Under the pieces are notes generated by a model that did not search any database, was not told the DNA's origin, and was given only the letters and a program-made list of their open reading frames with translations. Of a stretch of DNA of 64,000 nt, positions 38,153 to 38,930 are shown piece by piece. The stretch comes from an uncultured Planctomycetia bacterium (lineage in GTDB: Bacteria; Omnitrophota; Gorgyraeia; Velamenicoccales; Velamenicoccaceae), in NCBI GenBank assembly GCA_964622605.1, contig CAZUQR010000001.1, positions 135,265 through 199,264 of the forward strand. The letters run 5' to 3'. A program made the translations under genes and the position numbers. Positions within the stretch are counted from its first letter, which is position 1, and every line of letters begins with the position of its first letter.

Positions 38153-38230
38153 GTCCGCCTGAGCCAAGCATGATCCTTTTTCGCAACCGAGTTGTGACAC
38201 GACTTGCGACGAGATTGAAGAGGTTACAAA

Positions 38231-38887
38231 GTGAAAATTTGTAGATTTATATCGCCTACTGATGTTAGTCGAGATTTCGGAGAGCAAAGCTCTTTTTGCT
38301 TAACAAATTATGATTACTTTAAAAGCATAGAGAAGAATTCCTCAATAGGTGATGATAAAGAAGGAATTATTGATGCGGAGAAAGAGGGAAGATGGGTTTG
38401 TGCGACAAGAGTCAAAGCGCTGCTGTCTTGTTGGACAATTCTTGAAAATGGGAAAATTTCTGAGGAAAATTGGGATATTTTTCCGGAAAAACGGGGGATT
38501 GCTGTTATATCTTCTACCGAAAAAATGAAGGCATTCTTCGAGAGATCGCTGGCGGCATGCCTTCAAAAGGAGTGGTTTTATTTTGAAGAAAGGCAAATTA
38601 AATATTACCCTGAAGGGGAAGGACCGGGTGAAAGTTTTTCTGCTCAAAGAAATGGCGTAAGAGCATATTTCTATAAACGCAACTGTTTTATAAACCAGCG
38701 GGAATACAGGTTTGCTTTCCGGCTCCCCCAAAAATATAGCTTCTTGAAACTTTTGGTATTTTATGTTGAACCTTCCAAGTATATTGAAGAAATAGTTCTC
38801 TATCCGCGCCTGGAGAAAGCAGAGCGTCAACAAATTACTAAGCGATTGCTTGATGCTGAAATCATTAGTAAAGTGGCTAACCTCTAG
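38231..38887 (+). CDS. Hypothetical protein encoded in a strongly AT-rich island (compositional outlier)
   Basis: GTG start with GAGG nine nt upstream. 218 aa with balanced, charged composition. The local G+C is far below the flanks (roughly 35-40 percent by eye versus about 65 percent). I do not securely recognise a family. Confidence 0.6.
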   Translation: MKICRFISPTDVSRDFGEQSSFCLTNYDYFKSIEKNSSIGDDKEGIIDAEKEGRWVCATRVKALLSCWTILENGKISEENWDIFPEKRGIAVISSTEKMKAFFERSLAACLQKEWFYFEERQIKYYPEGEGPGESFSAQRNGVRAYFYKRNCFINQREYRFAFRLPQKYSFLKLLVFYVEPSKYIEEIVLYPRLEKAERQQITKRLLDAEIISKVANL

Positions 38888-38930
38888 TTTTGCACCTGTA
38901 AGTGTTCGAGATGTCATTTCAACCAGAGTC

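What the first reader, a model, noticed from the sequence alone, without database searches (positions are those of the whole stretch)
38170..38925. Single AT-rich orphan gene between rodA and the radical SAM gene, bracketed by GC-rich palindromic repeats
G+C drops sharply for about 750 bp, an obvious change by eye from about two-thirds to well under one half. The drop covers exactly one 218-aa ORF with different codon usage.

The ORF is flanked by the 165-bp palindrome at 37988-38152 on the left and a family B repeat at 38931-39042 on the right. This is the signature of a recently acquired single-gene cargo at a repeat-marked hotspot.

I cannot assign the protein securely. The motif order C-W-T..W..RGIAVISS..IKYY..YKR..REYRF faintly recalls DUF2971-type proteins, which is a weak recollection. 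Single foreign genes in such contexts are often defence or abortive-infection functions.
Basis: partly seen in the sequence, partly recalled or inferred. Interest (0 to 1): 0.65.

Follow-up and report, generated by a model that had tools for sequence, protein, structure and literature searches.

The report
Foreign defence-like gene in repeat hotspot
A single AT-rich gene, recently inserted between two cell-wall/housekeeping genes of a GC-rich uncultivated bacterium, encodes a divergent relative of the DUF2971 / PDC-S31 proteins and so is probably a stand-alone anti-phage "suicide" enzyme; it sits in a repeat-filled spacer that is empty in the closest relative and holds a different orphan gene in another.

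Summary
G+C falls to 0.39 over 38165-38925, against a window mean of 0.625, the lowest value in 64 kb. The drop covers one intact 218-aa ORF (38231-38887, +) with GC3 0.35 against 0.72-0.87 in neighbouring genes.

The gene is foreign. The closest relative (rodA 92% aa) has a 102-nt rodA-rSAM spacer and no such gene. A more distant relative has a different AT-rich orphan ORF at the same junction.

In both occupied genomes the cargo lies between the 3' end of a conserved, covarying GC-rich structured repeat and a second repeat. That repeat is absent from Rfam and occurs on at least 119 metagenome contigs. Uninterrupted versions of both repeat pairs exist elsewhere.

The protein has no Pfam hit. 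Its family profile nevertheless recovers bona fide DUF2971 proteins (hhalign probability 98.5%), and it matches PADLOC PDC-S31 (E=7e-9). It keeps the family's invariant residues, including Tyr125 and Q156-x-E158.

DUF2971 includes Aristaios, a validated single-gene abortive-infection system, and is predicted to be ART-like. My high-confidence model (pLDDT 94) matched no solved ART by Foldseek. Acquisition and homology are therefore shown, defence function is inferred, and ART chemistry is unconfirmed.

The parts
36873..37976 (+). rodA (FtsW/RodA/SpoVE family), left border of the junction
   Evidence: Pfam FTSW_RODA_SPOVE, E=1.6e-96. 92% aa identical to L007 rodA and 81% to L009 rodA.
37982..38158 (+). 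GC-rich structured imperfect palindrome. It belongs to a dispersed repeat family with an invariant core, GGAACCCTCCCGTGGTTCCCC, at 38048-38068.
   Evidence: Inverted arms. Fold z = -7.0. Single copy in the window. At least 119 metagenome contigs carry the core. Covariation: 70 compensatory cells against 19.3 +/- 3.4 in shuffles, 0 of 500 as high. No Rfam match.
38165..38925 (.). AT-rich inserted segment (the cargo), lying in the linker between the structured element and the family-B repeat
   Evidence: GC 0.39. Absent from L007. L149 shows the element followed by family B with only about 30 nt between them.
38217..38223 (+). Shine-Dalgarno-like GAAGAGG, 7 nt upstream of the GTG start
   Evidence: Read directly from the sequence. 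No sigma-70-like promoter was found upstream.
38231..38887 (+). 218-aa ORF: a divergent DUF2971-superfamily / PDC-S31-like protein. It keeps R5, D41, E44, S66-C-W68, S94, Y125, F147-x-K149 and Q156-x-E158-Y-R160-F.
38931..39034 (+). GC-rich 'family B' intergenic repeat, right border of the cargo
   Evidence: 48-nt copy at 61379-61425. Copies on L149 at 88-97% and on L118 at 72%.
39076..40818 (+). B12-binding-type radical SAM gene, right border of the junction
   Evidence: Pfam Radical_SAM_N2 plus Radical_SAM. Orthologues in L007 (89%) and L009 (72%).

Best explanation
The 38165-38925 segment is a recent horizontal insertion of one intact gene into the repeat-filled spacer between rodA and the radical SAM gene.

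The gene encodes a compact, divergent member of the DUF2971 superfamily, and it matches the PADLOC candidate class PDC-S31.

By analogy with Aristaios, a DUF2971 protein, it most likely acts as a stand-alone abortive-infection-type anti-phage effector. In that model the enzyme is dormant until infection and then modifies a nucleic-acid or protein target, shutting down phage gene expression.

The proposed chemistry is NAD+-dependent ADP-ribosyl transfer. The candidate catalytic residues are R5 (motif I), Y125 (motif II) and Q156-x-E158 (motif III).

Shown here: the foreign origin, the empty and alternatively occupied sites, the intactness of the gene, and the DUF2971 / PDC-S31 homology. Inferred: the defence role and the ART chemistry.
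For: Acquisition
- GC is 0.39 against 0.625, GC3 0.35 against 0.72-0.87, and CAI 0.33 against 0.64-0.80.
- L007 has the same PBP2-rodA-rSAM synteny with a 102-nt spacer. L009 has a 1118-nt spacer holding an unrelated AT-rich ORF.
- The gene occurs in the same context, at 99.96-100% identity, on contigs from two other metagenomes.

Homology
- PADLOC PDC-S31, E=7.1e-9. 14 of 65 family members hit the PDC-S31 models.
- An exhaustive profile search found 159 clusters at E<1e-3.
- DUF2971 is the only Pfam family hit repeatedly: 8 of 65 close members and 21 of 56 distant members, best E=2.8e-8.
- P0100 and P0114 pass the Pfam cut-off (31.9 and 29.6 bits, against 22). They align to the family profile at 98.5% and 96.8% hhalign probability.

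Intactness
- All invariant family residues are present.
- The AF2 model has pLDDT 94.2 and pTM 0.90.

Function by analogy
- Aristaios is a DUF2971, single-gene, Abi-like system that blocks phage transcription (PMC11381338, PMC13064643).
- DUF2971 is predicted to be an ART related to DarT and AbiGi, with a conserved Tyr and an ExE motif (PMC12522546). The same Tyr and [Q/E]xE are invariant here.
- The Legionella homologue sits beside a variable integrase, Mrr-helicase, toxin-antitoxin hotspot.
- Homologues P0002 and P0003 are also AT-richer than their flanks.
Against: - There is no direct Pfam, NCBIfam or PDB sequence hit.
- Foldseek of the high-confidence model found no ART or any other solved fold (best E=0.37, TM 0.17). 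BFVD gave only weak hits to uncharacterised phage proteins.
- PDC-S31 is an untested candidate, defined by being embedded within BREX, DISARM or RM type I loci. This gene is not in such a locus or in a defence island.
- The three closest homologues do not hit PDC-S31.
- No promoter was detected, and there are no expression data.
- The gene has no matches in the phage or plasmid collections, so its donor is unknown.
Confidence: 0.5

Rival explanations
1. The gene is a functional DUF2971-like enzyme, but not an immune gene. It could be a toxin or effector used against competitors or hosts, an addiction module, or a stress-response modifier, as has been proposed for some Legionella DUF2971 proteins.
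For: - The Legionella survey predicts that about 18% of DUF2971 proteins are secreted effectors and proposes stress-related operons.
- Here the gene is embedded among cell-wall and housekeeping genes, not in a defence island.
- Homologue P0002 sits inside an ABC-transporter operon, and P0152 sits after pyrF.
Against: - I noticed no obvious signal peptide or secretion signal in the 218-aa sequence, though no prediction tool was run.
- The only experimentally characterised DUF2971 protein is an Abi system.
- The protein matches PDC-S31.
- The distribution is sporadic and single-gene, with foreign composition, which is typical of defence genes.
Confidence: 0.25
2. The flanking repeats actively capture or carry the gene. 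Under this reading the 3' end of the structured GC-rich element is a site-specific docking site, or one end of a non-autonomous mobile unit, for single-gene AT-rich cassettes. This concerns how the gene arrived, so it is compatible with either functional reading.
For: - In both the window and L009 the cargo starts within about 10-20 nt of the element's 3' end, although the element's orientation and side differ.
- Uninterrupted element-plus-family-B (L149) and element-plus-family-C (L156, L112, L113) pairs exist.
- GC drops of more than 0.06 occur at 8 3'-side flanks (7 distinct, since L105 and L175 appear to be the same copy) against 2 5'-side flanks.
- L110 has lower-GC small ORFs on the 3' side.
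- L180 has an rve transposase gene between two direct copies of the element.
Against: - Only 2-3 of about 88 3' flanks carry clearly AT-rich DNA.
- Most copies lie next to ordinary housekeeping genes.
- No target-site duplication was found.
- There are no attC-type core sites at the borders and no recombinase in the window by tblastn, which is an insensitive test.
- Cargo orientation relative to the element is not constant.
- Two strong cases on the same side are expected by chance half the time.
Confidence: 0.15
3. The ORF is an inert hitch-hiker or a decaying remnant of a mobile element and has no current function.
For: - No promoter-like site was found upstream.
- The gene has no partner genes.
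- The closest homologues are only 37% identical, and the family is rare.
Against: - The ORF is full length relative to its homologues.
- Every invariant family residue is retained.
- The predicted fold is confident.
- The start codon matches that of the homologues and has a good SD sequence.
- The sequence is identical in three metagenomes.
Confidence: 0.07
4. The gene is a native, vertically inherited gene with unusual composition.
For: It is co-oriented with the surrounding operon-like gene string.
Against: - It is absent from the syntenic site in L007 and is replaced by an unrelated ORF in L009.
- Its GC3 is 0.35 against about 0.8 for neighbouring genes.
Confidence: 0.02

Closest known systems
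DUF2971 (Pfam PF11185)
   Same: The central and C-terminal motifs are shared in register with bona fide members: L-x-S-C-W, G-I-A-I-x-S/T, V-x-Y-Y, and F-x-K-R..F..[Q/E]-x-E-Y-R-F. hhalign gives 98.5% and 96.8% probability. The invariant Tyr and the ExE-type motif match the published description (PMC12522546).
   Different: The window protein does not reach the Pfam model at all, even at E<=10. It is shorter, at 218 aa against about 250-350 aa. It carries Q, not E, at the first position of the ExE motif, as do 41 of 65 members of its subfamily.
PADLOC PDC-S31 (single-gene phage defence candidate)
   Same: Direct HMM match: E=7.1e-9, residues 65-213 against profile positions 74-226 of 245. It is a single gene.
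   Different: PDC systems were defined by being embedded inside BREX, DISARM or RM type I loci, and they are untested. This gene lies between rodA and a radical SAM gene. The N-terminal 64 residues are not covered by the match, and the nearest homologues do not hit the model.
Aristaios (Lactococcus plasmid DUF2971 Abi-like system)
   Same: A stand-alone single gene of the DUF2971 superfamily on horizontally mobile DNA. It is the only experimentally supported function for the superfamily: abortive infection that affects phage transcription.
   Different: Aristaios is 316 aa, is recognised by Pfam and InterPro as DUF2971, and is plasmid-borne in a Firmicute.
DarT / AbiGi / other ADP-ribosyltransferase toxins
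   Same: Proposed remote relatives of DUF2971 (PMC12522546). A conserved basic residue on the first strand (R5), a Tyr (Y125), and [Q/E]xE at the start of a strand (E158 begins strand 158-164 in the model) fit the order of ART motifs I, II and III.
   Different: There is no sequence hit to the DarT or AbiG models in PADLOC, Pfam or NCBIfam. There is no Foldseek hit to any solved ART. No antitoxin or macrodomain partner such as DarG is adjacent.
ERIC / BIME / Correia-type intergenic palindromic repeats (MITE-like), for the flanking GC-rich element
   Same: An imperfect palindrome of about 150-180 nt. It is multi-copy, intergenic, found in either orientation, stacked with other repeat families, and frequently breaks assemblies.
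   Different: Its core is identical across contigs of GC 0.42-0.76, which implies many different hosts. It has a branched, covarying structure and a wobble-over-A-C bias of 36 to 17 that favours one strand. It is not in Rfam.
Integron gene cassettes / attC sites
   Same: Single, compositionally foreign ORFs abutting an imperfect palindrome. Different cargo occupies the same site in relatives.
   Different: There are no R'/R'' core sites at the borders. No integrase was detected. Only one element is present per junction. ORF orientation relative to the element varies.

Membership tests
DUF2971 (PF11185) | Scores at or above the Pfam gathering cut-off (22 bits) against the PF11185 model | tested here: not met
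   No PF11185 hit, even at E<=10. Among 65 close family members only 8 give weak hits, best E=0.011.
DUF2971 (PF11185) | Demonstrable homology to bona fide members (superfamily level) | tested here: met
   The family profile retrieves P0100 (E=2.2e-7) and P0114 (E=2.1e-5) out of 1.84 billion proteins. Both pass the Pfam cut-off. hhalign gives 98.5% and 96.8% probability. 21 of 56 distant hits match DUF2971, and no other family is matched.
DUF2971 (PF11185) | A strictly conserved Tyr (motif II) and an ExE motif (motif III), as described in PMC12522546 | tested here: met
   Y125 is present in 63 of 65 members, and E158 in 65 of 65. Position 156 is Q in 41 and E in 23, and the window protein has Q. 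In the distant set the equivalent Tyr and Glu are invariant.
PADLOC PDC-S31 | Significant match to the PDC-S31 HMM | tested here: met
   PDLC04993: E=7.1e-9, 33.3 bits, covering 149 of 218 residues and 153 of 245 profile positions. PADLOC's own coverage thresholds were not available to me.
PADLOC PDC-S31 | Embedded in, or adjacent to, known defence systems (BREX, DISARM, RM type I) | tested here: not met
   The neighbours are PBP2, rodA, a radical SAM gene and a GGDEF gene.
PADLOC PDC-S31 | Anti-phage activity | not testable with these tools
   PDC systems are untested candidates even in the source publication.
ADP-ribosyltransferase superfamily | ART fold detectable against solved structures | tested here: not met
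ADP-ribosyltransferase superfamily | Motifs I ([H/R]), II (Y or S-T-S) and III ([Q/E]xE) in order on strands of the core sheet | tested here: inconclusive
   R5 lies on strand 2-7, Y125 on strand 124-126, and E158 is the first residue of strand 158-164. The order fits, but without coordinates or a superposition the assignment is an inference.
ADP-ribosyltransferase superfamily | NAD+ binding and ADP-ribosyl transfer | not testable with these tools
   Needs biochemistry.
Integron cassette / attC | attC core sites (R'' RYYYAAC, R' GTTRRRY) at the palindrome ends, and a nearby IntI integrase | tested here: not met
   The core-site patterns occur only inside the ORF (38298, 38430, 38765), not at the repeat borders. 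A tyrosine-recombinase probe gave no hit in the window. That probe test is insensitive.
MITE / ERIC-like intergenic palindromic repeat (flanking element) | Multi-copy, intergenic imperfect palindrome found in both orientations and lacking its own coding capacity | tested here: met
   At least 119 contigs carry it, and several contigs have two copies. It occurs in both orientations and next to unrelated housekeeping genes.

The most novel reading that the evidence does not exclude
The GC-rich structured element (window 37982-38158) is an uncatalogued, widely distributed functional RNA or ssDNA structure. Under this reading its 3' end serves as a specific docking site for single-gene, compositionally foreign cassettes. 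The rodA-rSAM spacer would then be a recurrent capture site that samples different orphan genes, possibly defence genes, in related lineages, with no linked integrase.
Probability: 0.12. Interest if true: 0.75.

Novelty: new member of a known kind. Interest (0 to 1): 0.45.

Why it matters
The result attaches a concrete, testable identity to what looked like an orphan. The gene belongs to a compact, Pfam-invisible branch of the DUF2971 / PDC-S31 proteins, with at least 79 clusters at E<1e-10. It keeps a Tyr and a [Q/E]xE centre, and a 94-pLDDT model is now available.

DUF2971 has more than 10,000 members but only one characterised representative. A minimal 218-aa version would therefore be a convenient subject for working out the chemistry and the trigger of this class.

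The locus also offers a clean natural experiment: an empty site, one occupied site, and one alternatively occupied site. All three sit next to a conserved structured repeat that is in no RNA database. That is a tractable setting for asking how single defence-like genes get into core-genome spacers outside classical defence islands.

Tried and rejected
- **Direct family scans.** Pfam, NCBIfam and PHROGs gave nothing useful. Hits were only TMEM145_N at E=0.096 and phrog_26561 at E=1e-3, of unknown function.
- **PDB by sequence.** The single protein and both family profiles found nothing.
- **First AF2 run.** A 4-sequence alignment gave pLDDT 39, which is unusable. The 65-sequence alignment fixed this.
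- **Foldseek.** No significant PDB match. BFVD gave only weak, unnamed phage proteins. The ART fold could therefore not be confirmed.
- **tblastn against plasmids and phages.** No match, so there is no donor clue.
- **Exact-sequence look-up including the stop codon.** This failed. The look-up by protein id worked.
- **The element as a cargo-carrying device in general.** Rejected as a general rule, because only 2-3 of about 88 3' flanks are AT-rich.
- **A protein family recurrently linked to the element.** Clustering of neighbouring ORFs gave only spurious GC-rich ORFs that overlap the repeat, plus diverse housekeeping genes.
- **Integron or attC reading.** No core sites and no integrase.
- **Target-site duplications around the cargo.** None of 7 nt or more.
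- **Rfam.** No family for either flank at the gathering threshold or at E<=10.
- **Viral contigs.** The element core is absent.
- **The L009 cargo.** No Pfam or PADLOC hit, and no homologue other than itself in 5.8 billion clusters.
- **PD-(D/E)xK nuclease reading of the D41/E44/K149/E158 pattern.** Considered and set aside. The motif spacing does not fit, and Foldseek found no nuclease fold.

Full report
**1. The observation**

A 200-nt sliding window shows G+C at 0.63-0.71 through PBP2, rodA and the first intergenic bases. It then falls to 0.36-0.41 from about 38165 to 38925 and returns to 0.56-0.65. In 300-nt windows the 64-kb window averages 0.625 (sd 0.048), and this stretch holds the minimum, 0.377. 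The only other windows below 0.50 are short and much milder.

One sense ORF fills the trough: 38231-38887 (+), 218 aa, with a GTG start 7 nt after GAAGAGG. GC by codon position is 0.45, 0.36 and 0.35. Eight neighbouring genes have GC3 of 0.72-0.87. A codon adaptation index built from those neighbours gives 0.33 for this ORF and 0.64-0.80 for the others.

Pfam confirms the flanking genes:
- PBP2: Transpeptidase plus PBP_dimer.
- rodA: FTSW_RODA_SPOVE.
- Downstream: a Radical_SAM_N2 / Radical_SAM protein, followed by a HAMP-GAF-GGDEF protein.

The left palindrome is real. Its arms are 37982-38025 and 38115-38158, and the whole stretch folds at -117.5 kcal/mol, z = -7.0. The right-hand 'family B' repeat is also real, but it is not itself a significant hairpin.

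**2. The gene is a recent insertion at a variable site**

I used the radical SAM protein to find relatives among species-representative genomes. Three were informative.

| Locus | RodA identity | PBP2 identity | rSAM identity | rodA-rSAM spacer |
|---|---|---|---|---|
| window | - | - | - | 1099 nt, holds the 218-aa ORF |
| L007 | 92% | 89% | 89% | 102 nt, only a short perfect hairpin |
| L009 | 81% | 76% | 72% | 1118 nt, holds a different AT-rich ORF |

- L007 has the same PBP2-rodA-rSAM-GGDEF order. Its spacer shows no GC dip and no extra ORF.
- L009 has the same synteny. Its spacer contains an AT-rich stretch (GC 0.37, GC3 0.34, against rodA GC3 0.89). That stretch holds a ~220-aa ORF unrelated to the window's protein, and its only match among 5.8 billion clusters is its own record, a truncated 165-aa call from the same contig.
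- L008 has lost the synteny upstream.

The window's own arrangement recurs at 99.96-100% identity on contigs from two other JGI metagenomes. Both contigs break inside the left palindrome. The insertion is therefore fixed in that population, absent from the nearest sampled species, and replaced by other cargo in a third.

**3. What the flanking repeats are**

The left element has a 21-nt core, GGAACCCTCCCGTGGTTCCCC.
- It is single-copy in the window.
- It is also present in L009, but on the other side of that genome's cargo and in the opposite orientation. About 90 nt around the core are nearly identical between the two.

Those contigs range from GC 0.42 to 0.76. The element often lies at contig ends, sometimes occurs twice per contig, and sits next to unrelated housekeeping genes such as Lnt, LivM, glycerate kinase, FtsW, CinA and MoaC.

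An alignment of 50 non-redundant copies shows a branched hairpin whose outer stem and inner junction covary:
- 96% of cells are paired, against 89.9% in shuffles.
- There are 70 compensatory cells against 19.3 +/- 3.4 in shuffles, with 0 of 500 shuffles as high.
- Pairing collapses to 43-69% when partners are slid by 1-3 columns.
- The central hairpin is invariant only because I selected copies by it.

G-U wobbles outnumber A-C mismatches 36 to 17, which weakly favours the strand as written. Rfam has no match at the gathering threshold or at E<=10, and the core is absent from viral contigs. I read the element as a dispersed ERIC/MITE-like structured repeat with an unusually wide host range.

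**4. Where exactly the cargo sits**

- On contig L149, a close copy of the element (8966-9140) is followed after about 30 nt by a family-B copy (9170-9217), in the same orientation as in the window.
- L009's left spacer (4972-5139) is a third palindromic repeat, 'family C'. On L156, L112, L113 and L161 it lies directly 3' of the element. The L009/L156 alignment shows about 700 nt of AT-rich DNA inserted cleanly between the two.

In both genomes, then, the cargo occupies the linker between the element's 3' end and a neighbouring repeat. This is suggestive of targeting, but it is not general.
- Only the window, L009 and, weakly, L109 and L110 have lower-GC DNA on the 3' side, out of about 88 flanks.
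- I found no target-site duplication, no attC-type core sites and no recombinase.

**5. What the protein is**

Direct scans found no Pfam or NCBIfam family. There was one real lead: PADLOC PDC-S31, E=7.1e-9, over residues 65-213.

The word-indexed search found only three homologues, at 30-37% identity. An exhaustive profile search of 1.84 billion representatives found 159 clusters at E<1e-3 and 79 at E<1e-10.

In a 65-sequence alignment the following are invariant or nearly so:
- Invariant: S66, W68, K149, E158, R160.
- Nearly invariant: D41, E44, L64, S94, Y125, F147, F161.
- R5 is present in 50 of 63 members.
- Position 156 is Q in 41 members and E in 23.

The window protein keeps all of these.

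DUF2971 is the only Pfam family hit by more than one member. It is hit by 8 of 65 close members, all weakly, and by 21 of 56 distant members, best E=2.8e-8. Two distant hits, P0100 and P0114, pass the curated cut-off. They align to the family profile with 98.5% (E=3e-15) and 96.8% (E=2e-10) hhalign probability. The LxSCW, GIAIxS/T, VxYY and FxKR..F..[QE]xEYRF motifs are in register.

By Pfam's own threshold, however, the protein is not a member.

**6. Mechanism: what is shown and what is inferred**

*From the literature*
- DUF2971 has been predicted to be an ADP-ribosyltransferase fold related to DarT and AbiGi. It has a poorly conserved motif-I His, a strictly conserved Tyr, and an ExE motif (PMC12522546).

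*Tested here*
- With the 65-sequence alignment, AlphaFold2 gives a confident model: pLDDT 94.2 and pTM 0.90.
- In that model R5 lies on the first strand, Y125 lies on a strand, and E158 opens strand 158-164. This is the order expected for ART motifs I-III.
- Foldseek found no solved ART, or anything else, at E<0.3. BFVD gave only weak matches to unnamed phage proteins.

The homology to a family with one validated Abi member is therefore shown. The ART chemistry is an inference that my one structural test did not confirm.

*Genomic context*
- The Legionella pneumophila homologue lies at the edge of a strain-variable hotspot. That hotspot holds integrase islands carrying Mrr-helicase, Gp49/HTH, DUF3800 and HipA genes.
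- P0002 is an AT-rich single gene between the binding-protein and permease genes of an ABC transporter, with palindromes in both spacers.
- The window's own neighbours are not defence genes.

**7. Verdict**

The finding is a recent single-gene acquisition, in a repeat-rich core-genome spacer, of a compact and divergent DUF2971 / PDC-S31-like gene. It is most plausibly a stand-alone abortive-infection enzyme.

It is a new member of a known, poorly characterised kind, not a new kind. The less ordinary aspects are:
- the same junction being empty in one lineage, occupied in a second, and occupied by a different gene in a third;
- both cargos abutting the 3' end of a conserved, covarying structured repeat that is in no RNA database.

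Whether that adjacency reflects a capture mechanism is open. I put it at roughly one in eight.

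Noticed in passing
window 37982-38158; L009 5830-5975 (-); loci L087-L205: A GC-rich branched-hairpin repeat of about 150-180 nt. Its invariant core, GGAACCCTCCCGTGGTTCCCC, is followed by CCTCCGCTACGGGGG. It occurs on at least 119 metagenome contigs of GC 0.42-0.76, has strongly covarying stems, and has no Rfam match. It behaves like an ERIC/MITE-type element but has an unusually broad host range.
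   Followed up: partly
L009 5163-5825 (+): A different AT-rich orphan ORF (~220 aa, GC 0.37) occupies the same rodA-rSAM junction in a related genome. It has no Pfam or PADLOC hit and no homologue other than itself in 5.8 billion protein clusters.
   Followed up: partly
window 14622-14697 and 25525-25600; L009 5086-5112; L156 5029-5173; L112, L113: A conserved intergenic motif, TTGCCGAAAAACTTCTGATTGT, lies within a palindromic 'family C' repeat. In the window it lies about 40-100 nt upstream of two + strand genes, and in L009 about 50 nt upstream of the alternative cargo. It may be a lineage-specific promoter-like element carried by a repeat.
   Followed up: no
L180 1-1522: Two direct copies of the GC-rich element immediately flank an rve-type (IS481-like) transposase gene on a 1.5-kb contig of GC 0.47. 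Either the element is an insertion target for the IS, or this is a repeat-bounded unit or an assembly wrap-around.
   Followed up: no
L003 1139-2517: The closest homologue, P0002 (37% identity), is also a lone AT-rich gene (GC 0.31 against 0.47). It is wedged between the SBP_bac_5 and BPD_transp_1 genes of an ABC-transporter operon, with palindromes in both spacers and 25-34-nt inverted matches bracketing the gene.
   Followed up: partly
L206-L209 (Legionella pneumophila), gene at 10001-10765: Family member P0057 is always followed by a conserved 137-aa ORF with no Pfam hit on record. It sits next to a strain-variable hotspot: integrase islands carrying Mrr_cat_2-helicase, Gp49/HTH and DUF3800 lie upstream, and HTH/HipA lies downstream. 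The 137-aa ORF could be a partner that the window's gene lacks.
   Followed up: no
L110 171-1265: On the 3' side of another copy of the element, GC falls from about 0.65 to 0.39-0.50. That stretch holds two small ORFs, a Cys-rich zinc-ribbon-like 122-aa protein and a 103-aa membrane protein. This may be a third example of foreign DNA at the element's 3' end.
   Followed up: no
window 38342-38983 (-): A 213-aa antisense ORF overlaps almost the whole cargo gene. No evidence supports it. Homologues and the structure prediction support the + strand ORF.
   Followed up: no
window 48724-48841 (+): A c-di-GMP-I riboswitch (Rfam RF01051, 49.2 bits). It accounts for one of the few other low-GC windows.
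   Followed up: no
window 42597-45796: Diverged internal repeats (66-76% identity, 464 and 1764 nt apart) indicate tandem paralogous genes downstream of the GGDEF gene, among the long + strand ORFs 42776-44518 and 44540-46261.
   Followed up: no
L007 5906-5951: The 'empty' rodA-rSAM spacer of the closest relative holds a perfect 23-bp-stem hairpin, GGCCGGATGGGGGATCCTCTGCC/GGCAGAGGATCCCCCATCCGGCC, without a T-run. It starts with the same GCGGCCGG as the window's element. It is either a rodA 3' stem-loop or a remnant of the element.
   Followed up: no
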